Positions 1 to 15,613 of a DNA stretch of 16,468 nucleotides are shown here, one piece after another. Positions within the stretch are counted from its first letter, which is position 1, and every line of letters begins with the position of its first letter. A program made the position numbers and the translations under genes. The DNA is from Polyangiaceae bacterium (GTDB lineage: Bacteria > Myxococcota_A > Polyangia > Polyangiales > Polyangiaceae), in contig JANRKO010000058.1 of the NCBI GenBank assembly GCA_033763455.1, positions 1 to 16,468 on the forward strand. The letters are read 5' to 3'. The notes under the pieces were generated by a model. It had not been told where the DNA came from. It was given only the letters and a program-made list of their open reading frames with translations, and did no database searches.

Positions 1-140
1 ATACATTGAGGTGTTCTACAATCGGAAACGCATTCACACGTTTCTCGGAAACCTGAGCCCATCAACTTTTGAATCTTGCATCGCTCAAAAGTTGGCGGCA
101 TAGTCCTATGAAATCTGTCCAGCAAATCGGATCAGCTCCA
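1..140 (+). mobile_element. IS3-family insertion sequence, 3' end (transposase C-terminus plus right inverted repeat)
   Basis: The frame from nt 2 reads YIEVFYNRKRIHTFLGNLSPSTFE...*, the characteristic IS3 OrfB C-terminus (YN..R.H..LG..SP..FE). It is followed by ctgtccagcaaatcggatcagctcca (115-140), which ends in the 3'-CA typical of IS3 ends. Confidence 0.88.
2..103 (+). CDS. IS3-family transposase OrfB, C-terminal fragment (5' part outside window)
   Basis: Manual translation YIEVFYNRKRIHTFLGNLSPSTFESCIAQKLAA* with TAG at 101-103. Not in the ORF track. Confidence 0.88.
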   Translation, partial: YIEVFYNRKRIHTFLGNLSPSTFESCIAQKLAA

Positions 141-848
141 AACATCTATGCGCTAGTGGAAGGGAAGCGAACTGAAAAGGAGCTCTACCGGGCATGGCTT
201 AGGGCGGCGCTTCCAAAACTTGAAGTCGTCGGTCGACCAGAAGACTTGGGGGGAAATTCGCTCTTTCTCGTTTCCGGAAATGGGTACCCCAGCTACAAGC
301 AGCGTATTATCCAATCGTTGCAGGACATTGCTCAGCACGGCGCTATCGACGCGTTTCTTGTGTGCGTCGATTCGGAGGAAATGTCCAGGGACGAGAAGCT
401 GGAGGAGCTGCAAACTATTTTGAAGTCTGCTCAGCCGTTCCCAAGAACGAAACTTGTCGTTCACGATTGCTGCATCGAAACGTGGCTTCTCGCGCACAGG
501 AAGATTGTTAGCAGAACGCCACAGGAGAGCCAGCTTGGCAAGTTCGTTGCACATTTTGATGTGACTCATTTGGACCCCGAAAAGATGCCTCTCCTGCCCG
601 AGTTTCGCGTTCGCGCCCAGCATCACTTTGCCTATCTCAAAGCGAGTTTTCGGGAACGGGGGCTCTCGTACACAAAAGCGCACCCGGGGTGCGCTTGTGA
701 CGCTAAGTACTTCGAAGAATTAGCCCGACGATGCACGAACACAGGTCACATTTCTTCGTTCCGCGTGCTGCTGGACGTTCTGGCTGAGCTTGGGGCGGAG
801 CCCGAACGCATTGGTCGTGCCGTTTGCAGCGGATACCGCACACGCTAG
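108..848 (+). CDS. TOPRIM-fold (DUF4276/RloB-like) protein; native start displaced by IS3
   Basis: NIYALVEGKRTEK begins at nt 141 right after the IS end (TOPRIM hhhhEG..E motif). It also has the acidic motif LVCVDSE and HDCCIETWLL. An in-frame ATG at 108 lies inside the IS end. Such proteins usually sit downstream of an AAA/ABC ATPase gene. Confidence 0.65.
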   Translation: MKSVQQIGSAPNIYALVEGKRTEKELYRAWLRAALPKLEVVGRPEDLGGNSLFLVSGNGYPSYKQRIIQSLQDIAQHGAIDAFLVCVDSEEMSRDEKLEELQTILKSAQPFPRTKLVVHDCCIETWLLAHRKIVSRTPQESQLGKFVAHFDVTHLDPEKMPLLPEFRVRAQHHFAYLKASFRERGLSYTKAHPGCACDAKYFEELARRCTNTGHISSFRVLLDVLAELGAEPERIGRAVCSGYRTR

Positions 849-897: not shown

Positions 898-1563
898 ATG
901 GCCCCAGGCTCAACAGTCAGACGGCAGGTGGCGACACGAGGTTACATTTTTGTCCCGCGCCTCCTTAGCAACGAATCCACCATTTCCGCAGTTTCGCAAC
1001 TCGGTACCATCGCCACGCTTGCTGGCCTCGATCGCGTTCAGATCCTCTGTCCGCGCAAACGGGCCGATGCTCCCCCTAATATTTATAGCGGGAACTTTGG
1101 TCTCGATGCCTTCCCGTTCCATACTGACCTCGCTCACTGGTCGCTTCCGCCGCGATATTTGGCGCTCCGGTGCATAAGGGGGGCCGCCGAGGTAGCAACC
1201 CGGTTATTTGACTCCGGCGGTATCGTCCACGCAGTCGGGCAAGCCGCTCTGCGTCGAGCGTTGGTGCTACCTCGTCGCCCAGTCGGTGGTGCTCGGTCTC
1301 TCTTACCTCTGCTTCAACGCATCGAAGGGGTAAGCCTATTCAGATGGGATCAGATATTCATTGGACCGGCTACTCGTACTAGCCGCGCGACATGCGAAGC
1401 GGTCAGCAGCTTCCTCGCCGCAGCGCCGGGAGAACACATTTCACTAGCGGAACGCGGAGATACCCTCGTGATTGACAACTGGCGGATGCTGCACGGCAGG
1501 ACGGGCGTTCTTACGACGGCCTTGTCACGTCGAGTAGAGCGCGTGTACCTTGTAAATTTGTGA
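898..1563 (+). CDS. TauD/TfdA-like 2-oxoglutarate/Fe(II)-dependent dioxygenase
   Basis: HxD facial-triad motif (FPFHTDLAHW..PPRYLAL), distal His in DTLVIDNWRMLHGR, and a C-terminal Arg (RRVERVY). ATG 898 is preferred over TTG 871 because 871 lies inside the attC-like element. Confidence 0.85.
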   Translation: MAPGSTVRRQVATRGYIFVPRLLSNESTISAVSQLGTIATLAGLDRVQILCPRKRADAPPNIYSGNFGLDAFPFHTDLAHWSLPPRYLALRCIRGAAEVATRLFDSGGIVHAVGQAALRRALVLPRRPVGGARSLLPLLQRIEGVSLFRWDQIFIGPATRTSRATCEAVSSFLAAAPGEHISLAERGDTLVIDNWRMLHGRTGVLTTALSRRVERVYLVNL

Positions 1564-2519
1564 TGGCCGCAAAGAAGAAGTCCGTGAAAGTTCTGGCTGA
1601 TCCTCACGCCTGGTCGAAGGACGCACTTTTGGCGAAGGCACAGCGCTTCGCGGAGGAGATGGCTTCGAACACGCCGGATGATTGGCGCTTCATGCTCTGG
1701 TCTACGCTGGCATTGGAACTTCTCGCAAGAGCAGCGCTTGCGAACGTCAGTCCGACGCTCCTCGCCGAGAAGGAGTGGCCCAACGTATACTACGCCCTCG
1801 GCCATCAGCCAAAGACGAATAAGTTTGTTCCTCGTTCGATCGATATTACAGCGGTGTTCACAAGGCTGCGCGAAGCTCATACTGGACTTGATCCGCGACT
1901 CGCGGGGTTCGGGGTCCTCCATATGCACAGACGCAACGAGGAGCTTCATTCCGGTAGGCTGTCTCTAGACAACACAAAGAATTCGACTTGGCTCCCCATT
2001 TTCTATGAAACCTGCGAGGCTCTCCTGGTTTCGATGGACGAGACACTGAATACACTTTTTGACGATGAAACGGTTGCCACTGCACAAGCGATGATCGCCG
2101 CAGCGAGAGATCAATCCTCGAAGGCAGTTGAGGGTACGATTCGCGCCCACAAGACGGTTTGGGCGGGCAAGAGCGCCCCCGAAAGAAAGCAATTGGTTGC
2201 GCAGGCAACCGCCTGGGCGACGCGTCATATTGGCCACCGCGTCAAATGTCCGGCTTGTGAGTGTGATTCCATCCTGACCGGCGTACCTACAGGGCCCCCG
2301 AACAAAACTCTCAAGGGTGATGAGATCATTGAGCGTCAGACCCACGTTCCTTCGCGGTTCGAATGCGTCGCTTGCGGCCTTAAGATCTCCGGCCTACCCC
2401 AGCTGCATGCTAGCAATCTGGGGGACACGTTCACCGTAACGTACACCTACGAGGCTGCCGAATACTACGCTCCCGACGATCCGTGGGAGGGATACGAGCC
2501 CGATAACAACGAGCCTTGA
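1563..2519 (+). CDS. putative HEPN-domain protein with C-terminal zinc ribbon
   Basis: Helical N-terminus with ALELLARAAL, Rx4H motif RNEELH, two CxxC pairs (CPAC, CVAC) and an acidic tail. TGATG stop/start overlap with the oxygenase at 1561-1565. Confidence 0.65.
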   Translation: MAAKKKSVKVLADPHAWSKDALLAKAQRFAEEMASNTPDDWRFMLWSTLALELLARAALANVSPTLLAEKEWPNVYYALGHQPKTNKFVPRSIDITAVFTRLREAHTGLDPRLAGFGVLHMHRRNEELHSGRLSLDNTKNSTWLPIFYETCEALLVSMDETLNTLFDDETVATAQAMIAAARDQSSKAVEGTIRAHKTVWAGKSAPERKQLVAQATAWATRHIGHRVKCPACECDSILTGVPTGPPNKTLKGDEIIERQTHVPSRFECVACGLKISGLPQLHASNLGDTFTVTYTYEAAEYYAPDDPWEGYEPDNNEP

Positions 2520-3524: not shown

Positions 3525-4484
3525 ATGCGCCTTACCCTGAAGCAATTTAATGGCGTCAAGGATCTCGCGAAGGCTCTGCAGAATTTCCTACCGGGCTCAG
3601 GGGCGTCCTCGTGGAAAGGGCATGTCAACTTCGGAACGGTGGCTGCTGAGCTCGGCCTCTCCGAGTACTGGCCACAATCCGGGAGCAAACTCCCCCGCCT
3701 GGTTTCGCTCCTACAGGCCACACTTGAGTACAGGCCTGAGCGGTTCGAGCCGTTGATCGTAGGCATTGTTCGGAAGGGACTAACCTACCGGGAAGCGCAG
3801 AAAGACCCGGTCAGGTCAGCCGAGGTTGAGGGCATTAACGGTGCGCTACTCGAAGTGGGGATGCGACTTCCTGATTTGTGGGATCCGGCGTTCCGAGACG
3901 CACTGTCGCGCACAGACGTGGAACGCGCCCAGACGAACCTGAGCAGTGCGCGCTTTACCGACGAGGTTCAGAGCACTGAACGAGCAAACCGTTCAAGTGA
4001 GCTTCAGCGGCTACAACAGGAGCTCTGCGCCTTGACGTCCTTGAGCGATCGGCAGGCAGCCGGTCTCAGTCTTGAGCGATTGCTGAACTCCCTCTTCAAA
4101 CTCGAAGGGCTCGTTCCTCGATCATCATTTCGTGTTATTGGAGAGCAGATTGACGGTTCGTTCGTTCTTGACAACGAGGTCTATCTTCTCGAAGCTAAGT
4201 GGCACGTCGACCCGTCTCCTGAAGCTGATCTGCTTGTGTTCCGAGGAAAAATTGAAGGAAAATCGGCATTCACCAGGGGGGTCTTTGTTTCACTCAATGG
4301 TGTTTCGGCGTCGGCCCAGGACGCGATCACGCGAGGCAAGCAGCCAAACTTCTTTGTAATGACCGGCCACGATCTGATGATGGTGTTGAGCAATGCGATC
4401 GGCTTGGTCGATCTACTTCGCCGCCGCCAACGAGTCTTGTCCGAAGAGGGAGCAGTTGTTGTGGAGTTCGCACGCGTCAAGTGA
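3525..4484 (+). CDS. restriction endonuclease-like protein (Mrr_cat-type PD-(D/E)xK C-terminal domain)
   Basis: GLSLERLLNSLF...GEQIDGSFVLDNEVYLLEAKW...GVFVSLNGVS matches the Mrr-like E/ID/ExK catalytic pattern. A helical N-terminal domain of about 130 aa precedes it. Confidence 0.85.
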   Translation: MRLTLKQFNGVKDLAKALQNFLPGSGASSWKGHVNFGTVAAELGLSEYWPQSGSKLPRLVSLLQATLEYRPERFEPLIVGIVRKGLTYREAQKDPVRSAEVEGINGALLEVGMRLPDLWDPAFRDALSRTDVERAQTNLSSARFTDEVQSTERANRSSELQRLQQELCALTSLSDRQAAGLSLERLLNSLFKLEGLVPRSSFRVIGEQIDGSFVLDNEVYLLEAKWHVDPSPEADLLVFRGKIEGKSAFTRGVFVSLNGVSASAQDAITRGKQPNFFVMTGHDLMMVLSNAIGLVDLLRRRQRVLSEEGAVVVEFARVK

Positions 4485-4620
4485 GATTGTGTGCTTCGAA
4501 ATAGCCACCCGCAAGAAAGGGCGAGCTCCACGAGAGCAAATCGATCCGGTTGGACCGAGCGGGGTTGCATGCGGCTATCAGTCGGGTTTTTCTATGCTCG
4601 CTAGCCCGGGCAGGATACAG

Positions 4621-5625
4621 ATGGAAGATTCGAAACCGTTTGAGGCTGTCCCCGAGGACGGGGCGGCCCTCTTCAGGATGGCTTGGCAGCTTGAGAACTG
4701 GTTCCGCCTCATAGTGTATGTGGAACTTCGCGCTGCCTATGTCGACTGGGAGGCACCGATCCGGTCGGTGGTAGCTCAGTGGCCACCACGGGCTCTTGGC
4801 AACGACAAGCGCTTGCATCACATGGCAACCGCCCACGCCTCACCACTCTCGTACCTTACGTTCGCTGAGCTCTGGAAGATCATAGCTGATGATCAGCATT
4901 GGCAACTTTTCGAGCCCTACTTCCCACCAAAGGAAATCACTACGGCCCGAATTGAAGAAGTCCGAGCGATCCGCAATCGGATTGCCCACTTTCGAGCGCC
5001 CCACGTCCACGATGTTGCCCGCTTCACGTTGTTTCTGAATGACATGGCATCGGGACTTCGTCGGTTCTGTCAACGATACAATGCTCCGGCGCATTCCCAG
5101 AAACCGGACGCATTTCACGAGCACCTGGGAGCAAACTGGCGCCGTTACGGCTATGGGACGGAGATGAACGGGCCGAATGGCTGGTTATACGCGCCGCACG
5201 ATCAACGGACGTGCCCGACTTTTCATGCAAGTCTGTCCGTTCATCGGCATCCGTTGTCCGGCGCGCGAACAGCTGGGCTGATGTATTGTCTCGCGCTCTT
5301 TCCGCCGGTTGACAGATATCTAGATGTTTCCGGCTTCCTCGAGGGGAGCCGCAAACTTCACGATAAAGCAATTCACGTCCGGATCGAATCTAAGGAGCGG
5401 GTCAGCGTAGTGCTCCCCGCTGTACAATCCGTTCCAGTGATCGGTGACCTCGCAGCGGGATTCCTACAGGTGGCGCGCGACAACGTCTCACTTAGTGAGC
5501 GATCCTTCCAGGTGAACCCATCGGATTGGTCCGAATCTGTGCTGTGGCCGAGCCATGTCCTCAACATCTCTATTGATGAACCGCACGATCCGCTCCTCGA
5601 AGTCCCATCCCTGCGAGCGGGCTAA
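4621..5625 (+). CDS. Swt1-like HEPN domain protein
   Basis: WQLENWFRLIV, LSYLTFAELWKII..W..FEPYF and IRNRIAH (Rx4H) are typical of Swt1-family HEPN domains. The start is uncertain (ATG 4594 or 4621); the ORF-track start at 4393 overlaps the upstream gene. Confidence 0.8.
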   Translation: MEDSKPFEAVPEDGAALFRMAWQLENWFRLIVYVELRAAYVDWEAPIRSVVAQWPPRALGNDKRLHHMATAHASPLSYLTFAELWKIIADDQHWQLFEPYFPPKEITTARIEEVRAIRNRIAHFRAPHVHDVARFTLFLNDMASGLRRFCQRYNAPAHSQKPDAFHEHLGANWRRYGYGTEMNGPNGWLYAPHDQRTCPTFHASLSVHRHPLSGARTAGLMYCLALFPPVDRYLDVSGFLEGSRKLHDKAIHVRIESKERVSVVLPAVQSVPVIGDLAAGFLQVARDNVSLSERSFQVNPSDWSESVLWPSHVLNISIDEPHDPLLEVPSLRAG

Positions 5626-5644
5626 CAAGGCATTGCTGACCGAC
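5620..5644 (+). other. left half of an attC-like site
   Basis: GGCTAAC overlaps the stop codon, then 5-nt AAGGC, then ATTGCTGA-CCGAC, giving R''-spacer-L'' geometry. No matching right half is found. Confidence 0.5.
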
Positions 5645-5647
5645 ACC

Positions 5648-6442
5648 TTGATCACCCACATTAAAACGCTTCGTTCCCTCTTGGTCTTAGCCATCTCTTC
5701 GTGCCTCATCGCCACCTGTAGGCTCCACGCGGCACACAACCCCGAGAGAGCCCGAAAAGCTCCGAGCGAGCCGATAACGGCAACGGTTGAGCGCCCGCCC
5801 GCAACGCTTGCTCCAGATGTGCGGACCCCGAATGCCTCGTCTGTGCAAGTCCCAGAATTACCAGCCCCAGCCCCGGCACCGCCACCGGCTGAGCATGATC
5901 CCGAGCTTCTTGCACGTTTAACCATTAAAACCACGAAGCCTAAGCCCTTAGCCAAAGCCAAATTTCGATCCGCCGCGGGCCTATTTCGCGAAGTCATCCG
6001 AGGCGTCGCCAATCGCTCCCTGCTTGAGGAGAAAGACGAGGCCTGTCAGCAAACACTTGTTACCGACCAAAACGGGACCGTTCGGGGCTTCACTTGGTTT
6101 GGGGGAACCGAACACCACTACGCTGAGTACCGCCGGTTCTTCGATCAGAACGGCGTACTCCGACTCTTGCTACACATGCGCCGCGACGAGCAGGGCGGTT
6201 GGACCGAAGATGTGGTCGCTTTCGATCAGGCGAGCAACGTCAGCGCGTGCGAACATATTGACCATCGCCAGGGAATGCCTCGGCCAGATCTCTGCGAGGA
6301 CGAGGAGCCCGAGCCCAAGGTCGATCCCGAAGTGCAAGCAGCATTGAAACCCTCTCCTCCCCATCGCCGACGCAACCGCATGTTGGAATATTTGCAGTCT
6401 ATCGATCCGAAGGCACAATTTCGGAAGTGCGAGGGTTATTAG
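5648..6442 (+). CDS. hypothetical exported protein / lipoprotein with Pro-rich linker
   Basis: From TTG 5648: basic N-terminus, hydrophobic stretch LLVLAISSCLIATC, Pro/Ala-rich linker (PAPAPAPPP), then a globular domain. Start uncertain. Confidence 0.55.
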   Translation: MITHIKTLRSLLVLAISSCLIATCRLHAAHNPERARKAPSEPITATVERPPATLAPDVRTPNASSVQVPELPAPAPAPPPAEHDPELLARLTIKTTKPKPLAKAKFRSAAGLFREVIRGVANRSLLEEKDEACQQTLVTDQNGTVRGFTWFGGTEHHYAEYRRFFDQNGVLRLLLHMRRDEQGGWTEDVVAFDQASNVSACEHIDHRQGMPRPDLCEDEEPEPKVDPEVQAALKPSPPHRRRNRMLEYLQSIDPKAQFRKCEGY

Positions 6443-6487
6443 CCGAGCCTTCGCTAGTACGCGTCAAAATTCGGCGCAAACTCAACT

Positions 6488-6523
6488 CTCGCGGGTTGCC
6501 AATCACTGCGCTATACTCAAGGA
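6488..6523 (+). promoter_or_regulatory. putative TA-operon promoter (-10 TATACT at 6512-6517)
   Basis: TATACT lies 6 nt before ATG 6524. The region is homologous to 10174-10209. Confidence 0.5.
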
Positions 6524-6718
6524 ATGCAAATCCCGGTGGAACTCAACGCAAGTGAGGTCGAGCAGCTGAGGGAACGAGCCAAACGGCTTGGAGTCCTGCC
6601 GGAAGATCTCGCCCGCGCCGCCGTGTCGGACCTGCTCAATGTCCCAGATGCCGAGTTTGAGTCGGCCATGGAGTTCGTTCTGAACAAGAACGCCGAGCTC
6701 TATCGACGCCTCGCCTAA
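6524..6718 (+). CDS. antitoxin (ribbon-helix-helix-like) of Doc/Fic module
   Basis: 64 aa with an RHH-like N-terminus and the C-terminal NAELYRRLA tail typical of Doc antitoxins. TAATG overlap with the toxin. Confidence 0.8.
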   Translation: MQIPVELNASEVEQLRERAKRLGVLPEDLARAAVSDLLNVPDAEFESAMEFVLNKNAELYRRLA

Positions 6719-7104
6719 TGCGGTTTGTATCCCTGAGCCAGGTGCTTCGTCTGCACGAGGCATTGCTAGAGCAGTCGGGCGGGAGTGCCGGCCTTCGCGA
6801 TCTTGGAAGGCTTGAAGCGGCGCTGGCTCAGCCGAAGGCATCCTTCGGTGGCGTCGACCTCTATGCCAGCTTGTTCGAAAAGGCGGCCGCTTTATGCTTC
6901 TCAATCGTCCAAGGTCACCCCTTTGTGGACGGAAACAAGCGCGTTGGTCACGCCGCCTTGGAAGTCTTCCTTGTCATGAACGGGTACGAACTCACCGCTT
7001 CTGTTGATGAGCAAGAATCCACAGTGCTCGCGCTGGCCTCAGGCCAACTAAGTCGTGAGCAGCTTACTGAATGGATCGTGCGGGCCGCCGTTCCCAAACG
7101 CTGA
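6718..7104 (+). CDS. doc: death-on-curing (Doc/Fic family) toxin
   Basis: HPFVDGNKR Fic/Doc motif, GLRDLGRLEAAL..P and KAAAL; 128 aa. Confidence 0.93.
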   Translation: MRFVSLSQVLRLHEALLEQSGGSAGLRDLGRLEAALAQPKASFGGVDLYASLFEKAAALCFSIVQGHPFVDGNKRVGHAALEVFLVMNGYELTASVDEQESTVLALASGQLSREQLTEWIVRAAVPKR

Positions 7105-7117
7105 GCGGTTGAAGTCA

Positions 7118-7210
7118 ATGCGCATCCGACTTGCAACAGTAGATGATGCTCCTCAGATCGCTCGGGGAGAGTGGGCCACTGCCGCTATCCCAGGGATGTT
7201 GGTGGGTCGA
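7118..7210 (+). pseudogene. GNAT acetyltransferase N-terminal fragment
   Basis: MRIRLATVDDAPQIAR is a typical GNAT start. After about 31 codons the sequence switches to the reverse complement of the vapC fragment. Confidence 0.55.
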
Positions 7211-7463
7211 ATGCTCTGTGCAATTCTGCGTAGCGATGCGATACTGGCACATCGACCGCCGTTGTGATGACACCATCTTGCGCCAGAAACCATTGCAATC
7301 GCATTTCATTCTTGGCAGCGCGTGTCCCTCGCCGAAAGCCAGAGCGAATCTCCCCAAGAGCAATCACCGACGTGGATTACCTCCGCGGACTCAAGCTGAT
7401 CGAAGACCTCGCCATCGTTTGAAAGCGCGTCTGAAGTCGACTGGTGTCGAGCAGCAGCTTCAC
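7185..7463 (-). pseudogene. vapC: VapC/PIN toxin, frameshifted and 3'-truncated
   Basis: GTG at 7463 overlaps the antitoxin TGA. It reads MKLLLDTSRL / SDALSNDGEVFDQLESAEVIHV / VIALGEIRSGFRRGTRAAKNE...YAELHRA across three frames. The C-terminal PIN acidic motif is missing. Confidence 0.75.
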
Positions 7464-7699
7464 TTCCAGAGTTCCTCGTCAATCACACGGTGTAGCTTCA
7501 GGGATCGATCGAACGCGGCCGCTTCCTCCTTCGACCACGCTCCGGGCAAGCTTCGCAGATTTCGAGGCCTGACAGTTTTCCCAACGCTGTGCGCCAGCGC
7601 CTCGAGTGCCACTTGATTAACACTCTTGTTGAGCCGCCTGGCACGCTCCTTAAGCACTCGGTCTAATTCGGGGGGAATATTGCGTATTGTGTACTGCAT
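7460..7699 (-). CDS. FitA/VapB-like RHH antitoxin
   Basis: MQYTIRNIPPELDRVLKERARRLNKSVNQVALEAL is an RHH antitoxin signature, ending IDEELWK. GTGA overlap with the vapC remnant. Confidence 0.85.
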   Translation of the reverse strand: MQYTIRNIPPELDRVLKERARRLNKSVNQVALEALAHSVGKTVRPRNLRSLPGAWSKEEAAAFDRSLKLHRVIDEELWK

Positions 7700-7927
7700 G
7701 CACTTAATCATGTCCGGTGCCTGCACTCTTTGGAAGCCAAGACCCAATGTGTGCTTTGTCCCGGTTAGGCAGCCCTAATCTGGCAGTCCCGCGCACGAGA
7801 AGGATGGAGCCACTTGGCTGCAGACCGGCACGAAGGTGCGGCAGCTGTGGGAATCGGGGCTGCTCGGCTGGGATTGGTGGTACCGCCGAGGGTTGGTTGA
7901 CCGCGCCCTTTCGTATAGCGTCGGCCG

Positions 7928-9850
7928 ATGATTCAGCGAAGTGCGCCTCATACCCCCTTCACCCACCTGGATGAACTCCGGTCGAAGCTTGCGCTTCGCT
8001 TCAAGTTGCTTACCGCCACCCTCGTTTCCGCAGGTGCCATCTATTGTACGAGCCCGGATAGTGGTCCTTCTGGGGATCCGTCGGCGACCGGCGGCGCGTC
8101 TGCTGGGGGTCAAGCGTCGGACGCTGGTGGTTCGAGGGCGGGGGGCTCGTTAGGCGTTGGTGGCGCGCCCGGAATCGTTGGTGGGGCAGGGGCCGAGGCC
8201 GGTGCGAGCGGGCAAACTCAGGCAGGTGGTGGGCTCGCACTTGGTGGAGCTTCGGCCGGCGGAGCCGCAGGGGGCGTTTCTGCCGTGGGGGGCGTTTCTA
8301 ACGACGGAAGTGGCGGCACCCCTTCTCAGGGCACGGCGGGGCAAGCCGGCCAAGGCAACACGGGTGTGTATCAATGTCAGTCGGAAGCCAATGCCTGCGA
8401 ACAACTGACTCTTTCAAATTGCGAGGCTGCAGAAGGGTGCACGCCGATTGGGTGGTGCGCGGGAACGCCCACTGATACTTGCTCAGCGAAAACCTACGAA
8501 CAGTGCCTGGAGGCCCCTGATTGCCTAGCCCTGGGGATCAACGTCGGTGATTGCCATCTCGCCGTGACCTCATGCGCCGACCTGTCCCAGTCAACATGCG
8601 GGGCAACACCCGGGTGTACGTGGAGTTTCGATTGCGCAGCTCGTCCGTTGCGCTGCAACGAGAAGGTCGAATCGGCCTGTACGATTGTAGGGTGCAACAG
8701 CGGGACCACGGCTAGCCCCCAGCCCCTACTTCCCCTGGGCCTGACGTGGCTTAAGACATTGCCGGTCGCAACCTTCTCGGTGCTGGACGTCAACGACAAT
8801 GGGGACTACCTCGTGGGGGGCACTGGAGTTTTCGACGCGAGCGGCTTCTCTAAGGCATCAGCTCCCCCTACGGCCACCGCAATGGCTGAGAACGGCGCGT
8901 TCCTGGTAACGGGAAGAACCGATTATAGTTTTGGCCCGCAGTACGTTACCCCTTGTTACCAGAACGGAGGCCCCGGGCAGTACTGGTTGTACGTGCAAGG
9001 TCCCGGATTCCCGTGCGCGGAGTTCTCTTTCCGAGTGTTTGACCTCTTGGGGGCGGCAATTTCGGGGAGACCCTTTTCTGCATCAAACGGCCAGGTGACG
9101 ACTTTTGCGACGGGTCAACCGGGACAGCCAACGGGCCACACCGTGGCATTCGACAATACCGGTGTCGAGCTCTGGAGACGCCCAACCTTTGGTTCTGTGC
9201 TCAACCTCGACGCGGCAGGGAATGTGTTCCTTGCTGGTTACCAGTCAACGCTTCAAAACGGAGTCATGAAGGTAGACGGCGCGGGCAAGCATCGTTGGGT
9301 GTCCGGTTTCGATCCTCAGGCTTTCGATCGCGTCGAACTGGCAGTGTCTAGGGAGGGATGGTCGGCCACGGCCTTTTGGTTCTCGGCGGATTTTAGCGTC
9401 GCCGGCGTGCCGGTGAAGGCTGCGTTGAATGCTCAGAACACGGCGGTTGTCGTCTTCGATCCGAACGGCAACCTGGCATACGTCCTCAATCTATACAGCC
9501 ATGAACTCGTTCGGCCAAAACTCGCATTTGGAAAGAACAACGCCCTCTACATCGCAGGCGTCTTTATGGAAAAGGTCACGATAGGCGACCAGACCTCGAC
9601 TATCGACAGCATTGATCTTAACCAGGCCGCGGTGTTTCTAGCATCTGTGGACAGGAGCGGAATCGTTCGGCAGGTCGCTCGAATTGATTCAGAAAAAGGG
9701 AAAACTGGGCCATATCTAGCGGGGCTCGACACCGATGCGGCTGGCAACCTGTACGTTGGCCTCGTTCGCCAGCAGTCGCCGCTCATATTTCCTGGAGCAG
9801 TTGTTGCTGACACAAACAACGGCGTAGTCGCCAAGTTTGCCCAACCATAA
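7928..9850 (+). CDS. secreted protein with Gly-rich linker, Cys-rich repeats and beta-propeller (SBBP-like) C-terminus
   Basis: Signal-like LLTATLVSAGAIYC, about 110 aa Gly/Ala/Ser linker, about 4 Cys-rich repeats (C-x7-C-x4/5-C), and repeated DAAGNVFLAG / DPNGNL / DAAGNLYVG blades. Confidence 0.75.
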   Translation: MIQRSAPHTPFTHLDELRSKLALRFKLLTATLVSAGAIYCTSPDSGPSGDPSATGGASAGGQASDAGGSRAGGSLGVGGAPGIVGGAGAEAGASGQTQAGGGLALGGASAGGAAGGVSAVGGVSNDGSGGTPSQGTAGQAGQGNTGVYQCQSEANACEQLTLSNCEAAEGCTPIGWCAGTPTDTCSAKTYEQCLEAPDCLALGINVGDCHLAVTSCADLSQSTCGATPGCTWSFDCAARPLRCNEKVESACTIVGCNSGTTASPQPLLPLGLTWLKTLPVATFSVLDVNDNGDYLVGGTGVFDASGFSKASAPPTATAMAENGAFLVTGRTDYSFGPQYVTPCYQNGGPGQYWLYVQGPGFPCAEFSFRVFDLLGAAISGRPFSASNGQVTTFATGQPGQPTGHTVAFDNTGVELWRRPTFGSVLNLDAAGNVFLAGYQSTLQNGVMKVDGAGKHRWVSGFDPQAFDRVELAVSREGWSATAFWFSADFSVAGVPVKAALNAQNTAVVVFDPNGNLAYVLNLYSHELVRPKLAFGKNNALYIAGVFMEKVTIGDQTSTIDSIDLNQAAVFLASVDRSGIVRQVARIDSEKGKTGPYLAGLDTDAAGNLYVGLVRQQSPLIFPGAVVADTNNGVVAKFAQP

Positions 9851-9997: not shown

Positions 9998-10094
9998 TCT
10001 GACCAAGAAACGCCGAGCTCTATCGTCGCCTCGCCTAATGCGGTTTGTATCCCTGAGCTAGGTGCTTCGCTTGCACGAGGCATTGCTGCAGCAG
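9998..10094 (+). repeat. degenerate copy of the antitoxin-doc junction (6679-6774)
   Basis: tctgaccaagaaacgccgagctctatcgtcgcctcgcctaatgcggtttgtatccctgagctaggtgcttcgcttgcacgaggcattgctgcagcag aligns with 6679-6774 with a few substitutions and a 1-nt insertion. It carries a CAG->TAG nonsense change in the doc frame. Confidence 0.95.
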
Positions 10095-10209: not shown

Positions 10210-10443
10210 ATGGAACACGGTGTTGTAGTTCGTGGAACGCTGCATGGCCGCCACATCGAGCTCAACGAGCGAGTGGACGAACTGGACGGCGAGGTCGAAG
10301 TGTTCCTTCGGTCCGTGGAAGCGACGCCGCGTGCACCGGACGTACTCGAGGTGATCGCCTCAATGCCCGCAGGCACTCGTAGCAAAGACGATATCGACCG
10401 CCACCTCGCCGACGACCGAGCGGGCTGGACAGACCGTGGCTGA
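10210..10443 (+). CDS. putative antitoxin of PIN toxin
   Basis: 77 aa with a beta-rich N-terminus and RSKDDIDRHLADDRAGW C-terminus. Overlaps the PIN gene by 8 nt. Confidence 0.72.
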   Translation: MEHGVVVRGTLHGRHIELNERVDELDGEVEVFLRSVEATPRAPDVLEVIASMPAGTRSKDDIDRHLADDRAGWTDRG

Positions 10444-10894
10444 TATCTATCTCGACGCGTGCTGCTTTATCTACCTCGTGGAGGGGCAGCCTGGGTGGCG
10501 AAGCATTGTCGAGGCAAGGATCCGTGACCTCGACCCCGCGTCGAGGCTCGTCACGTCTCAGCTAACGCGGCTAGAGTGTCGCGCGAAGCCAATGCGTGAT
10601 GGGAACGATGAACTCCTAGAGCGTTACGACATGTTGTTCGGAGCGAGCCGCGTCGCAGTGCTCGACGTGACGGCAAAGGTGATCGACTGTGCAACTGCGC
10701 TGCGTGCACGGCACGGCTTCAAATCGCCCGATGCAATTCACCTGGCGACCGCGATTGAATACGGTGCGACCGCGTTTTGGACGGCGGATGCTGCTTTGTC
10801 TAGCTGCACTAATGTCCCAGTCATTGTGATGCTCCCCGATGCGCCTGAACGTGGAATCGGAGCAAGGCATCCGTCGGGTCACGGCCGTTCTTGA
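10436..10894 (+). CDS. vapC: VapC/PIN-domain toxin
   Basis: IYLDACCFIYLVE, TRLE, PDAIHLATA and FWTAD contain the four PIN acidic residues. Confidence 0.9.
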   Translation: MADIYLDACCFIYLVEGQPGWRSIVEARIRDLDPASRLVTSQLTRLECRAKPMRDGNDELLERYDMLFGASRVAVLDVTAKVIDCATALRARHGFKSPDAIHLATAIEYGATAFWTADAALSSCTNVPVIVMLPDAPERGIGARHPSGHGRS

Positions 10895-11236: not shown

Positions 11237-13186
11237 TCACCCCCGCTTCCGCTTTGCGGAGGTGCGCTTGGCGACGGCTTTGCCTGCGGACGGACGCTTG
11301 GTTGCCGTTCGTCCGCGCGCTGCCTTTAGGGTAGTCGCAGGGAGTGAGAGGGGCGCTTCTGGCTTAGGTGGCCCAGCGAGGGGTAAAAACGGTGGTGGAC
11401 CCGGCATGGGGTCGCGCAGCCACCAGAACACGTCCGGCTTCGGGATGAGATCACGGAGCCGCCCGAGGTCTAAGGTTGGCATCGCTAGCGCCGCAATCGT
11501 GCCGATAGCAGGGGCGAAGAAGTAACCCCCTCCCGTGGGAGTGACCCATTCGCTGTCGAGCGTGAGCCGCACGGGTCCGCCGGGTGTGGGAAAGTCGATC
11601 TGGCGTTCGCGATTTCCGTAGCGGTCGGCCTGGCCGATGATCGGATCATGCCCACCCAGGTTGGGTTGAATCGTGGAGTTAGCCCAACGCCGCTGCAAAA
11701 ACTCGAATTGCTCCTCGATGTTGCTCTGATAGGAGAGAAACATGAGCCCGCGCTCAGCGCGCTTGAGCGTCGGCTTGGGTTTTCGCACCCCGAAAATATG
11801 CGGCCCGAACGGGATGCCTCGACGCAAGATCAAGCGCAGCATCATGTCCGTGTGCGGGCCCATTTCGGTGGCAGCATCGCGCGTGTTCATTTTGCGAATG
11901 TGAGCAAAATGGGGGCATACGGTGGCCAGAAAATCCTGGGTTGCCTGGGGAAAGGAGTCCCCCGTGTAGCCGGGGATTGAGGTCAACGCAGCGGGCTGCG
12001 AATCGCCTTCAAAGACGAAGTGATTGTTCGCGAAGTCGTCACTACCGAGCGCCGGATTATCGGCGAGGGGGGAGCGCAGGATGGGCGCGCCACTCCGCCA
12101 GCGACCCACCAGCATGGCCGCCACACGCTCGGCAGGGAGACCCACTTGCCGAGAAGCGCTGGCGACGAACCGCCAGAACGCTGGCACATCTTGGCGCAGC
12201 CGGCGAACCACCACAAACGAACCGAGCCTTGCCCAAGCGGGCTGGCTTGCTGCCGCTACGCTTCCGAGGAGATCGCCCGGGGCCTGACGCGGCTCTCCGA
12301 GCAGAAATTGGCCAGGCCATATGAGCGGCTGCCCGGGCTTGGCCATGAATTTTGCCTTGGGATCCCCGGGCGCCATGTAGCGCGGAACGATGAAATCTTG
12401 AGGATGCGATGAGGCACGGCCCCGCATTGCGGGCTGGCTAATCCCATCCCGAAAGCCGAAGTGCTCGTGGCCACGCAGAGCACCGGGAAGCACGTCACCG
12501 CGTTGCTCGAAAACGAGCGAAAGGCCCGCCCCCGTGGCTTCTGTCTGGATCTCCCGAACCTTCGCCACAAGATTTGCTTCAAGATCACTCGCGACGATGA
12601 TCATCAAGTCTGCTGGATTATGCGGCCCCCCCACGCGCCAGCGGCTCTTGTGACCGGGGTGGCTCGGCGACGACGGATCTCCAAGGTACTCTGAGCGCTC
12701 CGCGAGCCCTTGATGAAAGCTCTCCGCATTGAGCTCATCCACGGCTGCAGGATCCATGAGCTTCCTCAAGCCGGCCGAGGAAAAGGCAAGATTCATCCAC
12801 GTGGCGTAAGCGCCAACATCTCGACGGCCTGTTTCGGCGCGGCGCGAGCGGTACCCGCGTACGAAAGCCAACACCTGATCCATGGTGGTGACGTCAGGCA
12901 AGAGCTGGCGCAGGAAAGACCGCGCGTGGTTAACGTGCCCAAGATTGTAAAACAAGAAGTGTTGGTAGGGCTTGTTGAAACCAGGAACTATATTCCCCTG
13001 GATCTGAGCTCGCTTCTCGTCGGAAAACTCGGCTTCGACGGGAGCCCCAGGAATTACGGGTCCGTAGATACGGCTCAGGCTTGGATAGTCCAGGAACGGC
13101 AACTCTAAGCGAGCCTCGGTGCTGAGGCGTTCGAAAAGCCCTTGGCTCGCGATGTTAGCCGTGGCGGAAGGTTTCTTTTTTGGCAT
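11237..13186 (-). CDS. DyP-type (dye-decolorising) heme peroxidase
   Basis: IQGNI, EHFGFRDGISQP (GxxDG distal Asp), GSFVVVRRLRQDV, AHIRKMNTR (proximal His), ILRRGIPFG (distal Arg), GGGYFFAP. AAGGAG RBS upstream. Pro- and Lys/Arg-rich C-terminal tail. Confidence 0.93.
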   Translation of the reverse strand: MPKKKPSATANIASQGLFERLSTEARLELPFLDYPSLSRIYGPVIPGAPVEAEFSDEKRAQIQGNIVPGFNKPYQHFLFYNLGHVNHARSFLRQLLPDVTTMDQVLAFVRGYRSRRAETGRRDVGAYATWMNLAFSSAGLRKLMDPAAVDELNAESFHQGLAERSEYLGDPSSPSHPGHKSRWRVGGPHNPADLMIIVASDLEANLVAKVREIQTEATGAGLSLVFEQRGDVLPGALRGHEHFGFRDGISQPAMRGRASSHPQDFIVPRYMAPGDPKAKFMAKPGQPLIWPGQFLLGEPRQAPGDLLGSVAAASQPAWARLGSFVVVRRLRQDVPAFWRFVASASRQVGLPAERVAAMLVGRWRSGAPILRSPLADNPALGSDDFANNHFVFEGDSQPAALTSIPGYTGDSFPQATQDFLATVCPHFAHIRKMNTRDAATEMGPHTDMMLRLILRRGIPFGPHIFGVRKPKPTLKRAERGLMFLSYQSNIEEQFEFLQRRWANSTIQPNLGGHDPIIGQADRYGNRERQIDFPTPGGPVRLTLDSEWVTPTGGGYFFAPAIGTIAALAMPTLDLGRLRDLIPKPDVFWWLRDPMPGPPPFLPLAGPPKPEAPLSLPATTLKAARGRTATKRPSAGKAVAKRTSAKRKRG

Positions 13187-15280: not shown

Positions 15281-15613
15281 GTGAAACTCCCCGGTGCAGC
15301 ACACGCCTTCGTAGCTGACGAGAAAGTCCGCGACTACTTGCTGTCGCCCGTTAATCCCCGCGCCCGGGGAAAAGCCGCATTCTTTCGGGCCCTTGGCTTC
15401 GACGACTCCAATTGGGCCCTTCTGCGTGAGGCGTTGCTCGAGATCGCCCGCAGCGGTACCGCAGGGGCGGGTCAGCCCAGCGAGTTTGGGGTTAAGTATG
15501 AGATTCGTGCTACCCTAAACGGGCCTACAGGGCGCCAGGCAACCATCAAGACCGTCTGGATCATGAACGCTGAAGACGACACACCACGCTTTGTGACGGC
15601 ATACCCCGACTGA
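15281..15613 (+). CDS. DUF6883-like protein (putative toxin)
   Basis: MKLP...EKVRDYLL..HP/NP.GKA.FF..LGF...FGVKY...GP.G....I.TVW.....PRFVTAYP pattern. TGATG overlap with the next gene. Confidence 0.75.
   Translation: MKLPGAAHAFVADEKVRDYLLSPVNPRARGKAAFFRALGFDDSNWALLREALLEIARSGTAGAGQPSEFGVKYEIRATLNGPTGRQATIKTVWIMNAEDDTPRFVTAYPD

What the first reader, a model, noticed from the sequence alone, without database searches (positions are those of the whole stretch)
898..2519. Candidate new defence or TA system: 2OG-Fe(II) dioxygenase translationally coupled to a HEPN-Zn-ribbon protein
Seen: a small TauD-like oxygenase with intact HxD...H/R residues overlaps (TGATG) a gene carrying an Rx4H motif (RNEELH) and two CxxC pairs. 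The two lie between an attC-like end (878-884) and a GTTAGAC remnant (2608-2614), so they look like one mobile unit among nuclease genes. Known: HEPN Rx4-6H domains are RNase effectors in Abi and TA systems; in HEPN-MNT systems an enzyme antitoxin chemically modifies the toxin; 2OG-Fe(II) oxygenases can oxidise bases and protein residues. Inference: the oxygenase either neutralises the HEPN toxin by hydroxylation or senses/edits modified phage nucleotides to trigger it. I know of no described system with this pairing.
Basis: partly seen in the sequence, partly recalled or inferred. Interest (0 to 1): 0.82.

Follow-up and report, generated by a model that had tools for sequence, protein, structure and literature searches.

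The report
Oxygenase paired with HEPN-type RNase
Two overlapping genes, a small iron- and 2-oxoglutarate-dependent oxygenase and an unnamed protein with the hallmarks of a HEPN RNase plus a zinc ribbon, travel together as a mobile pair in many bacterial phyla and on plasmids, and probably form an undescribed toxin-antitoxin-like or defence module.

Summary
The two genes exist as described: 898-1563 (221 aa, TauD family) and 1563-2519 (318 aa), joined by TGATG. The attC-like boundaries are not supported.

- **Oxygenase.** It keeps H75/D77/H199/R211. Its model resembles clavaminate-synthase-like amino-acid hydroxylases (Foldseek E 3e-11).
- **Partner protein.** It matches no Pfam, NCBIfam or PADLOC model. 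It has both HEPN hallmarks, ExxxR in helix 2 and an invariant RNxxxH at a helix end. The only fold hits with probability of 0.4 or more are HEPN structures, though none is significant. It also has a four-Cys zinc ribbon and a conserved acidic C-terminal tail ending [YF]xN[DE].
- **Pairing.** The oxygenase gene lies directly upstream in 37 of 41 related genome loci; three of the four misses are contig ends. It is also present in all 7 plasmid loci examined, down to 25% identity. No third gene is conserved.
- **Context.** Flanks are often toxin-antitoxin, restriction, defence or mobility genes.

My reading is a mobile HEPN RNase module whose dedicated oxygenase modifies the RNase, possibly at the tail Asn, as enzyme antitoxins do in type VII systems. 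That step is inferred; the complex prediction never ran. I found no paper on this pairing. It is a new variant of a known kind.

The parts
898..1563 (+). Gene A: minimal (221 aa) clavaminate-synthase-like Fe(II)/2-oxoglutarate oxygenase of the TauD/TfdA family
   Evidence: Pfam PF02668 at E 5.9e-11, above the cut-off. AF2 model pLDDT 92.4. Foldseek against PDB gave 262 hits at E<=1e-3; the top hits are KDO1 lysine hydroxylase (3e-11), clavaminate synthase and AsnO. 325 homologues of about 221 aa were found.
1120..1128 (+). H75-T-D77, the first two ligands of the iron-binding facial triad
   Evidence: H75 and D77 are invariant in A2 (30 sequences) and A3 (31 sequences); T76 is invariant in A2 and at least 90% in A3. 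Divergent plasmid copies have HxD or HxE. Aligns with the HTE of clavaminate synthase.
1492..1530 (+). H199 (third iron ligand), R201 and R211 (the Arg aligned with the 2OG-binding Arg region of BBOX)
   Evidence: Invariant in A2 and A3. Aligned to BBOX and clavaminate synthase. That this Arg binds 2OG is from recall of the family, not from a call.
1560..1565 (+). Stop/start overlap GTGATG, consistent with translational coupling
   Evidence: In all 32 intact pairs (window plus 31 loci) the downstream ORF's first start lies at or before the upstream stop. The overlap is 4 nt in 23, 1 nt in 1 and 13-91 nt in 8, where the first-start rule probably over-extends the ORF.
1563..2519 (+). Gene B: 318-aa protein of an unnamed family, with an N-terminal HEPN-like helical domain, a C-terminal zinc-ribbon/beta domain and an acidic tail
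   Evidence: No Pfam, NCBIfam or PADLOC hit even at E<=10. 881 relatives among the 8000 candidates scored. 1268 representatives at E<=1e-3 in the 50%-clustered library. AF2 pLDDT 88.5, pTM 0.79.
1716..1730 (+). E52-x3-R56, the Ex3[KR] motif in the second long helix
   Evidence: E52 is invariant in A1, A4 and A5. R56 is invariant in A1 and A4 and at least 90% in A5. It lies in predicted helix 41-62. PMC3710099 defines this motif as a HEPN feature.
1932..1949 (+). R124-N-E-E-L-H129, an Rx4H motif with a polar residue after the R
   Evidence: R124, N125 and H129 are invariant in 33 close and 39 diverse members. RNxxxH is present in 119 of 119 and 113 of 113 full-length relatives. It sits at the end of helix 111-129, before a loop.
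2235..2453 (+). Zinc-ribbon/beta domain (aa 225-297) with C229-P-x-C232 and C268-x-x-C271
   Evidence: The four Cys are invariant. The region is predicted as beta strands 225-297. Members give weak matches to zinc-ribbon Pfam families: DUF7129 in 27 of 33 members (best E 6.3e-4) and Zn_ribbon_IS1595 in 19 of 33.
2469..2516 (+). Disordered acidic C-terminal tail ending YEPDNNEP; the family motif is [YF]-x-N-[DE] at or near the C-terminus
   Evidence: N[DE] occurs within the last 5 residues in 114 of 119 close and 84 of 113 diverse full-length relatives. Most exceptions end YxNM or Yx[DE][DE]. N316 is at least 90% conserved at 27-48% identity. pLDDT is 65 and then 48 over the tail.

Best explanation
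Genes 898-1563 and 1563-2519 form a self-contained, horizontally mobile two-gene conflict module of the toxin-antitoxin or abortive-defence kind.

Gene B encodes a metal-independent RNase of the HEPN type (ExxxR plus RNxxxH). It carries a zinc-ribbon domain, which I infer binds nucleic acid or the ribosome, and a conserved acidic tail ending [YF]xN[DE].

Gene A encodes a dedicated, catalytically competent but stripped-down Fe(II)/2-oxoglutarate oxygenase of the clavaminate-synthase-like, amino-acid-hydroxylating branch.

I propose that the oxygenase acts on its partner protein. It would hydroxylate a side chain, most plausibly the near-invariant Asn (or Asp) of the C-terminal tail, and so keep the RNase off. 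This would be analogous to the enzyme antitoxins of type VII systems, where MntA AMPylates HepT and TomB oxidises Hha. Because the reaction needs O2, Fe(II) and 2-oxoglutarate, loss of any of these, or of oxygenase synthesis, would free unmodified RNase.

Shown by calls: the two genes, their motifs, the obligate pairing, the mobility and the context. Inferred: RNase activity, toxicity, that the oxygenase's substrate is the partner, the site of modification and the direction of control.
For: **Pairing.**
- A TauD-like gene lies directly upstream on the same strand in 37 of 41 genome loci found with the HEPN-ZnR protein. The misses are L016, L035 and L038, where the contig ends at the gene, and L036, a degraded fragment.
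- From the oxygenase side, 30 plasmid records match. 24 of them sit next to the HEPN-ZnR hits listed. Four more were fetched and confirmed; two were not checked.
- The pairing holds at 25-27% identity, in P. aeruginosa and Agrobacterium plasmids.
- No third gene is conserved: the next largest flank cluster covers 3 loci.
- Stop and start overlap in all 32 intact pairs.
- Pairwise distances of the two proteins correlate (Mantel r 0.849, 0 of 2000 permutations reach it).

**Mobility.**
- Phyla are interspersed on the tree.
- 49 plasmid records carry the gene, 31 of them conjugative.
- Decayed copies exist: L036, L039-L041, L046, and an IS insertion in L006.

**Context.**
- The window holds Mrr_cat, a PDC-M34B/Swt1-like HEPN, Fic/Doc and PIN genes.
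- 22 of 38 scanned loci have TA, restriction-modification (RM), defence or mobility Pfam domains nearby.
- Plasmid neighbours include an OLD-like endonuclease with UvrD, SIR2, a PLD-like protein and a GIY-YIG nuclease.

**HEPN hallmarks.**. Among the rows listed, all those with probability of 0.4 or more are HEPN proteins: 2hsb (prob 0.95, target TM 0.68), the HepT toxins 6m6u, 5yep and 7ae8, and the sacsin HEPN domain.

**Oxygenase.** It is intact and nearest to the Lys, Asn and Arg side-chain hydroxylases KDO1, AsnO, OrfP and VioC, but about 100 aa shorter.

**Tail motif.**

**Precedent.** Enzyme antitoxins are described in passages of PMC7641770.
Against: - No call tests binding or modification. 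The complex prediction never ran.
- No fused oxygenase-HEPN protein was found (weak evidence by the tool's own note).
- The oxygenase's nearest solved relatives act on free amino acids, not proteins.
- The HEPN assignment has no significant statistic. Foldseek's best E is 0.25 with 0 hits at E<=1e-3. The PDB profile search gave 0 hits at E<=10. No HEPN Pfam family matched any of 33 plus 39 members. hhalign to two HEPN proteins was not significant.
- In L006 the HEPN gene is intact while the oxygenase gene has lost its last strand and is separated from it by an IS fragment.
- In Agrobacterium pAt (L044) the oxygenase lacks the R211 equivalent, yet the HEPN gene keeps RNRELH. Both cases are awkward for an indispensable enzymatic antitoxin.
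- The flank counts have no control baseline.
- There are no matches in 50,697 phage records.
- 29 of 113 diverse members lack the N[DE] ending.
Confidence: 0.45

Rival explanations
1. The two proteins act on a shared nucleic-acid target. The oxygenase oxidises a base, sugar or modification on RNA (host tRNA or rRNA, or phage nucleic acid), and the HEPN-zinc-ribbon protein binds and cuts the marked or unmarked molecule. This corresponds to the first reader's 'senses/edits modified nucleotides' option.
For: The pairing is obligate and the context is defence-like. The zinc ribbon and HEPN motifs suggest RNA binding and cleavage. The short oxygenase lacks about 100 aa relative to its small-molecule relatives, which fits an open active site for a macromolecule.
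Against: The fold relatives are amino-acid hydroxylases of the clavaminate-synthase-like branch. None of the rows listed is a nucleic-acid oxygenase such as AlkB or TET/JBP. This reading does not explain the conserved C-terminal tail.
Confidence: 0.2
2. The oxygenase makes or destroys a small molecule, such as a hydroxylated amino acid, that switches the HEPN protein on or off. It would be a signal-and-effector pair with no covalent modification of the partner.
For: The closest solved structures hydroxylate free Lys, Asn and Arg or similar small substrates. One source names relatives 'L-asparagine oxygenase'.
Against: The protein is about 100 aa shorter than those enzymes. No transporter, synthetase or other small-molecule gene is conserved nearby. 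The strict one-to-one co-divergence of the two proteins fits direct recognition, although co-inheritance alone could also produce it.
Confidence: 0.15
3. An ordinary metabolic or stress pair: a TauD/TfdA dioxygenase for sulfonate or phenoxy-herbicide catabolism next to a CxxC thiol-disulfide protein. This is what automatic names suggest, and it is how a Ralstonia preprint reads genes with those names.
For: RefSeq names the pair 'TauD/TfdA family dioxygenase' plus 'hypothetical protein'. Passages of preprint 10.1101/2024.10.16.618685 read an acquired TauD/TfdA dioxygenase and a CxxC-motif protein this way. I could not verify that those genes are this pair, because its Table S3 is closed.
Against: No catabolic, transport or regulatory gene is conserved beside the pair. 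The flanks vary and are often TA, RM, defence or mobile genes. The CxxC pairs lie in a zinc-ribbon beta domain, not a thioredoxin fold. The RNxxxH and ExxxR motifs are invariant. The best NCBIfam scores are 12-28 bits against cut-offs of 268-450.
Confidence: 0.03
4. An integron gene cassette bounded by attC sites.
For: GTTAGAC at 2608-2614 fits GTTRRRY, and the heptamer count in the window is somewhat high: 39 against 22.7 expected, with 1 of 200 shuffles reaching 39.
Against: 878-884 does not fit the core. No attC-like imperfect inverted repeats or repeat family were found. No integrase domain was found among the 17 window ORFs scanned. In other genomes the pair sits in unrelated contexts.
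Confidence: 0.02

Closest known systems
HepT/MntA (HEPN/MNT) type VII toxin-antitoxin system
   Same: A two-gene operon with the enzyme gene upstream of a HEPN RNase gene carrying Rx4H. In HepT/MntA the enzyme chemically modifies the toxin to silence it (PMC7641770, passages). HepT structures are among the few fold hits with appreciable probability.
   Different: The partner here is an Fe(II)/2OG oxygenase, not a nucleotidyltransferase. The HEPN protein is 318 aa with a zinc-ribbon domain and an acidic tail, against about 130-150 aa for HepT. It has no RX4HXY tyrosine: the motif reads RNEELHSG. Modification is not shown here.
Hha/TomB (type VII toxin-antitoxin, oxidative neutralisation)
   Same: The antitoxin neutralises the toxin by an oxygen-dependent oxidation of a side chain, with only transient contact (PMC7641770, passages).
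   Different: As far as I recall, TomB is not a 2OG oxygenase, and Hha is not an RNase. There is no sequence relation to either.
Clavaminate-synthase-like amino-acid hydroxylases (KDO1, AsnO, VioC, OrfP, clavaminate synthase)
   Same: The same double-stranded beta-helix fold and the same HxD/E...H...R iron and 2OG site.
   Different: The window's enzyme is about 221 aa against 310-330 aa. It belongs to no biosynthetic cluster. It is always coupled to a HEPN-ZnR gene.
Swt1/Abi2-type HEPN proteins fused to a zinc ribbon, listed in the 2013 HEPN census (e.g. Npun_R5629)
   Same: A HEPN domain with a C-terminal zinc ribbon in bacteria (PMC3710099, Table 1 passage).
   Different: I could not check whether that protein belongs to this family. 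No family member matched Pfam HEPN_Swt1. The census text does not contain 'dioxygenase', '2-oxoglutarate' or 'TauD'.
FIH-type asparaginyl hydroxylation of a C-terminal regulatory region (eukaryotic oxygen sensing); recalled, not from a call
   Same: The proposed logic is the same: a 2OG oxygenase hydroxylates an Asn near a partner's C-terminus, so that the partner's activity reports O2 and 2OG.
   Different: FIH is a JmjC-type enzyme, not TauD-type. The analogy is of mechanism only and is untested here.

Membership tests
HEPN superfamily | Rx4-6H motif at the end of core helix 3 and the start of the following loop (PMC3710099) | tested here: met
   R124-x4-H129 is invariant and present in 119 of 119 and 113 of 113 relatives. 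It sits at the end of predicted helix 111-129, followed by loop 130-139. The definition was read.
HEPN superfamily | Polar residue (N, D or H) directly after the conserved R | tested here: met
   N125 is invariant. The definition was read.
HEPN superfamily | Second conserved acidic residue in helix 2, typically within Ex3[KR] | tested here: met
   E52 is invariant and R56 is at least 90% conserved, both in helix 41-62. Divergent plasmid homologues read ELLGK, EFLAR or EFFIR.
HEPN superfamily | Four-helix up-down bundle superposable on solved HEPN domains | tested here: inconclusive
   Foldseek against PDB gave 0 hits at E<=1e-3. Among the listed rows, all those with probability of 0.4 or more are HEPN proteins: 2hsb (prob 0.95, target TM 0.68, rmsd 3.4 over 151 columns), 6m6u, 5yep, 3o10 and 7ae8.
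HEPN superfamily | Significant profile match to a described HEPN family | tested here: not met
   No HEPN Pfam family matched at E<=10 for P0002 or for 33 plus 39 members. The PDB profile search gave 0 hits. hhalign to two HEPN proteins gave probabilities of 0.4 or less. HHpred-type searches against HEPN profiles were not available.
HEPN superfamily | Metal-independent RNase activity | not testable with these tools
   Needs a cleavage assay with R124 and H129 mutants.
TauD/TfdA Fe(II)/2OG oxygenases (PF02668), clavaminate-synthase-like branch | Profile match above the curated cut-off | tested here: met
   43.2 bits against a cut-off of 27, E 5.9e-11.
TauD/TfdA Fe(II)/2OG oxygenases (PF02668), clavaminate-synthase-like branch | HxD/E...H facial triad and a 2OG-binding Arg | tested here: met
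   H75, D77, H199, R201 and R211 are invariant and align to clavaminate synthase and BBOX. One divergent lineage, L044, lacks the R211 equivalent.
TauD/TfdA Fe(II)/2OG oxygenases (PF02668), clavaminate-synthase-like branch | Double-stranded beta-helix fold like the solved members | tested here: met
   Model pLDDT 92.4. 262 PDB hits at E<=1e-3, with query TM 0.72-0.78 to KDO1 and 0.72-0.74 to clavaminate synthase.
Equivalogs: AsnO, taurine dioxygenase, clavaminate synthase, BBOX and others | Score at the NCBIfam equivalog cut-off | tested here: not met
   The best score is 27.9 bits against a cut-off of 450 (ClavSyn_CS1); the others score 12-23 bits against 268-419. The source name 'L-asparagine oxygenase' is therefore not warranted.
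Type VII toxin-antitoxin system | Two-gene operon in which the enzyme gene is coupled to the toxin gene | tested here: met
Type VII toxin-antitoxin system | The toxin arrests growth, and the antitoxin neutralises it by covalently modifying it | not testable with these tools
   Needs toxicity and rescue tests and mass spectrometry. The complex prediction could not be run.
Known anti-phage systems (PADLOC-DB v2.0.0) | Match to any system protein model | tested here: not met
   0 families for either protein at E<=0.01. DefenseFinder was not available.
Integron gene cassette | attC sites (paired imperfect inverted repeats with a GTTRRRY core) at the cassette ends, and an intI gene nearby | tested here: not met
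   878-884 does not match the core. No attC-like repeats were found. No integrase domain was found in the 17 window ORFs scanned.

The most novel reading that the evidence does not exclude
A bacterial counterpart of oxygen-sensing protein hydroxylation used in conflict. A dedicated minimal 2OG oxygenase hydroxylates the conserved C-terminal Asn of its HEPN RNase partner. The RNase is then released when O2, iron, 2-oxoglutarate or oxygenase synthesis fails, for example during phage takeover or loss of a plasmid. This would be the first oxygenase antitoxin or immune switch, and a new class of enzyme-neutralised (type VII-like) module spread over at least six phyla and many conjugative plasmids.
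Probability: 0.2. Interest if true: 0.88.

Novelty: new variant of a known kind. Interest (0 to 1): 0.7.

Why it matters
HEPN RNases are common effectors of toxin-antitoxin, abortive-infection and CRISPR systems. Enzyme antitoxins that chemically modify their toxins are a recent and small class.

Pairing with an Fe(II)/2OG oxygenase would add oxidative protein modification to that repertoire. It would also tie an RNase switch to oxygen, iron and central carbon status.

The family is large and unnamed: 1268 representatives at 50% clustering, and RefSeq calls the protein 'hypothetical protein'. One preprint reads genes with these names as herbicide-degradation and redox genes, so a correct reading would also improve annotation.

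The conserved C-terminal [YF]xN[DE] tail gives a specific residue to test.

Tried and rejected
- **Complex prediction** of the oxygenase with the HEPN-ZnR protein (A3 + A4): the job was never accepted or answered, so there is no result of any kind.
- **Profile routes to a named HEPN family** all failed. These were Pfam at E<=10 on P0002 and on 72 members, a PDB sequence profile, hhalign to the window's Swt1-like ORF and to a RiboL-PSP HEPN, and the protein atlas, which returned only unnamed clusters of the same family.
- **The exhaustive profile search** listed only strong family members, all at E 1.6e-52 or better. No distant named relative could be reached through it.
- **BFVD fold search:** 0 hits at E<=1e-3.
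- **Phage records:** no match.
- **Fused oxygenase-HEPN forms:** none found (weak by the tool's own note).
- **Literature search for 'TrlF'** returned only spectroscopy papers.
- **Rfam, tRNA and promoter/terminator scans** of the window found nothing relevant.
- **Integron reading:** rejected.
- **Metabolic reading:** rejected as unlikely.
Full report
**What is there.** The window carries two same-strand genes. Gene A is 898-1563 (221 aa, P0001) and gene B is 1563-2519 (318 aa, P0002). The junction reads GTGATGG, so the TGA stop of A shares a base with ATG 1563, or four bases with GTG 1560.

The proposed attC boundaries are not supported.
- 878-884 reads GTTTGGC, which does not fit GTTRRRY.
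- GTTAGAC at 2608-2614 does fit, but it is one of 39 such heptamers in the window (22.7 +/- 4.9 expected).
- No attC-like repeats exist.
- No Rfam family, tRNA or sigma-70-type promoter was found around the pair.

**Gene A.**
- It matches Pfam TauD above the curated cut-off (E 5.9e-11). It reaches only 12-28 bits against NCBIfam equivalogs whose cut-offs are 268-450. The name 'L-asparagine oxygenase' that one source gives to relatives is therefore not warranted.
- 325 relatives of about 221 aa were found.
- H75, D77, H199, R201, R211 and R215 are invariant in alignments of 30 and 31 members.
- The AF2 model is confident (pLDDT 92.4). It gives 262 PDB hits at E<=1e-3. The top hits are KDO1 lysine hydroxylase, clavaminate synthase, AsnO, BBOX, OrfP, VioC and CarC.
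- Gene A is thus an intact enzyme of the clavaminate-synthase-like branch, roughly 100 aa shorter than those relatives.

**Gene B.**
- It matches no Pfam, NCBIfam or PADLOC model, even at E<=10.
- Its family is nevertheless large. 881 relatives scored E<=1e-3 among the 8000 candidates examined. The exhaustive search gave 1268 representatives at E<=1e-3, 782 at E<=1e-10 and 371 at E<=1e-30.
- No source that names a relative gives more than 'hypothetical protein', as does RefSeq on plasmids.
- The AF2 model (pLDDT 88.5, pTM 0.79) has a helical part (19-221), a beta/zinc-ribbon part (225-297) and a disordered tail.
- Across 39 members at 27-48% identity the invariant residues are K25, E52, L66, R124, N125, H129, W143, C229, P230, C232, C268 and C271.

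**Is gene B a HEPN protein?** The 2013 HEPN census (PMC3710099; passages read) defines the domain by three features:
- an Rx4-6H motif at the end of helix 3;
- a polar residue after the R;
- a second acidic residue in helix 2, usually within Ex3[KR].

Here R124-N-x3-H129 ends helix 111-129 and E52-x3-R56 lies in helix 41-62. All three sequence hallmarks are met.

Fold evidence is weaker. Foldseek found no PDB hit at E<=1e-3. Among the listed rows, however, all those with probability of 0.4 or more are HEPN proteins: 2hsb at 0.95 with target TM 0.68, the HepT toxins, and the sacsin HEPN domain. Every profile route to a named HEPN family failed.

I therefore call it HEPN-like with good but not conclusive support. 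The zinc-ribbon part gives weak hits to zinc-ribbon Pfam families, for example DUF7129 in 27 of 33 members.

The family ends in an acidic, aromatic tail with a near-fixed Asn: ...YEPDNNEP in the window, and ...YGND or ...YDNE in distant members.
- N[DE] lies within the last five residues in 114 of 119 close and 84 of 113 diverse full-length relatives.
- Most exceptions end YxNM or Yx[DE][DE].
- The linker before the tail varies in length and sequence.

**Is the pairing real?** Yes.
- With the HEPN-ZnR alignment as query, 41 loci were fetched from Pseudomonadota, Acidobacteriota, Chloroflexota, Planctomycetota, a cyanobacterium and Ignavibacteriota. A homologue of gene A lies directly upstream on the same strand in 37 of them.
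- The four misses are three contig ends (L016, L035, L038) and one degraded fragment (L036).
- In all 32 intact pairs the downstream start lies at or before the upstream stop. 23 of them have a 4-nt overlap.
- Clustering of 416 flanking ORFs found no third conserved gene. The next largest cluster covers 3 loci.
- On plasmids, 49 records carry gene B and 30 carry gene A. 24 of the 30 lie beside the listed gene-B hits. Four more were fetched and confirmed by profile search. Two were not checked.
- All 7 plasmid loci examined have both genes, down to 25-27% identity.
- Distances between the two proteins correlate across 31 pairs (r 0.849, 0 of 2000 permutations reach it). Co-inheritance alone could produce this.
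- Phyla are interspersed on the tree.
- Decayed copies exist: frameshifts or deletions in L039-L041 and L046, and an IS630-type ORF between the genes in L006.

**Context.**
- *Window:* it also holds a weak RloB/AbiLii-like ORF, Mrr_cat, a PDC-M34B/Swt1-like HEPN ORF, Fic/Doc and PIN genes.
- *Related loci:* by a strict reading, 7 of 18 (L001-L018, full flanks) and 15 of 20 (L022-L041, +/-4 kb) have TA, RM, defence or mobility Pfam domains nearby. These include YhaV, HicB, AbiEii, MmeI, RES, HipA, Shedu SduA_C, Cap4 nuclease, Mrr, integrases, relaxases and ArdC. The rest lie among housekeeping genes. L019-L021 were not scanned, and I computed no control baseline.
- *Plasmid neighbours:* an OLD-like ATP-dependent endonuclease with UvrD, SIR2, a PLD-like protein, TrlF-family ATPases and a GIY-YIG nuclease.
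- *Phages:* no phage record matched.

**How it most likely works.**
- *Shown:* a mobile, obligate two-gene unit made of an intact oxygenase and a protein with HEPN catalytic hallmarks, a zinc ribbon and a conserved tail.
- *Inferred:* B is an RNase toxin or effector, and A is its dedicated modifying enzyme. A would hydroxylate B, most plausibly at the tail Asn/Asp, and hold it inactive. This parallels MntA acting on HepT and TomB acting on Hha (PMC7641770, passages). The O2/Fe/2OG requirement would then make the switch conditional.

The gene order (enzyme first), the overlap, the short and probably open oxygenase, and the tail motif all fit this model.

Against it:
- no binding test could be run;
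- no fusion of the two proteins was found;
- the nearest structures act on free amino acids;
- L006 and L044 pair an impaired oxygenase gene with an intact HEPN gene.

The rivals are a shared RNA target, a small-molecule signal, plain metabolism and an integron cassette. They are weighed in their own section.

**Comparison and novelty.**
- The closest known system is HepT/MntA. The logic would be the same, but the chemistry, the partner enzyme and the HEPN architecture differ.
- PADLOC-DB v2 does not hold the pair.
- Five searches found no paper on the pairing: HEPN+TauD; HEPN+2OG-Fe+defense; HEPN+dioxygenase+toxin-antitoxin; TauD+anti-phage; and HEPN+zinc ribbon+dioxygenase.
- The HEPN census text lacks 'dioxygenase', '2-oxoglutarate' and 'TauD'. 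It does list a zinc-ribbon-fused Swt1/Abi2-type HEPN (Npun_R5629), which I could not compare.
- A Ralstonia preprint (passages) reads an acquired TauD/TfdA dioxygenase and a CxxC-motif protein as metabolic genes. Ralstonia megaplasmids do carry this pair, but I could not confirm identity because bioRxiv supplements are closed.

**Not checked.**
- Metagenome contigs and viral contigs (closed)
- DefenseFinder and HHpred (not available)
- 19 of the 49 plasmid records (not listed)
- hits H58 and H59
- the flanks of L019-L021
- the protein complex

**Verdict.** I rate it a new variant of a known kind, with interest 0.7.

Noticed in passing
window 6689-6774 and 10009-10094: An 86-nt direct repeat at 93% identity. 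The first copy spans the end of small ORF 6524-6718 and the start of the Fic/Doc gene 6718-7104. The second lies upstream of the 10210-10443 / PIN 10436-10894 pair. It looks like a duplicated junction or a remnant of a phd/doc-like module.
   Followed up: no
window 69-848, 3525-5625, 6718-7104, 10436-10894, 15281-15613: The window reads like a TA/defence island. It holds a weak RloB/AbiLii-like ORF, a Mrr_cat ORF overlapping a PDC-M34B/Swt1-like HEPN ORF by about 90 nt, Fic/Doc, PIN and DUF6883. It also holds a 649-aa DyP-type peroxidase (11237-13186, minus strand) and a NUDIX gene.
   Followed up: partly
L006 5569-5979: In a cyanobacterial MAG, an IS630-type transposase HTH ORF sits between the oxygenase gene, which has lost its last strand, and an intact HEPN-ZnR gene.
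   Followed up: partly
L043 6124-8970; L047 and L048 1-2814: A 'TrlF family AAA-like ATPase' gene adjoins the divergent pairs on a P. aeruginosa plasmid (downstream) and on pSinA and an A. vitis plasmid (10 nt upstream, with a GIY-YIG nuclease gene downstream). The divergent branch may belong to a larger system. A literature search for the name was uninformative.
   Followed up: partly
L027, L030, L032 (about 3900-9600): Three alphaproteobacterial loci share the order ArdC-like anti-restriction gene, oxygenase/HEPN-ZnR pair, relaxase. The pair therefore rides on one family of conjugative elements.
   Followed up: no
L044 4354-5945 (Agrobacterium pAt): The oxygenase homologue lacks the R211 equivalent and is absent from the plasmid gene table. 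Its partner's tail ends YQDE, without the Asn, while RNRELH is kept. This is a single-lineage coincidence between loss of an oxygenase residue and loss of the tail Asn.
   Followed up: partly
L046 2839-4590 (plasmid pRSB223): The HEPN-ZnR gene is split by a frameshift into two ORFs. The deposited annotation places a hypothetical gene on the opposite strand over the oxygenase region.
   Followed up: partly
window, whole: GTTRRRY heptamers are somewhat over-represented (39 against 22.7 +/- 4.9; 1 of 200 shuffles reaches 39). They lie mostly within coding sequence, so this is probably a codon or composition effect.
   Followed up: no
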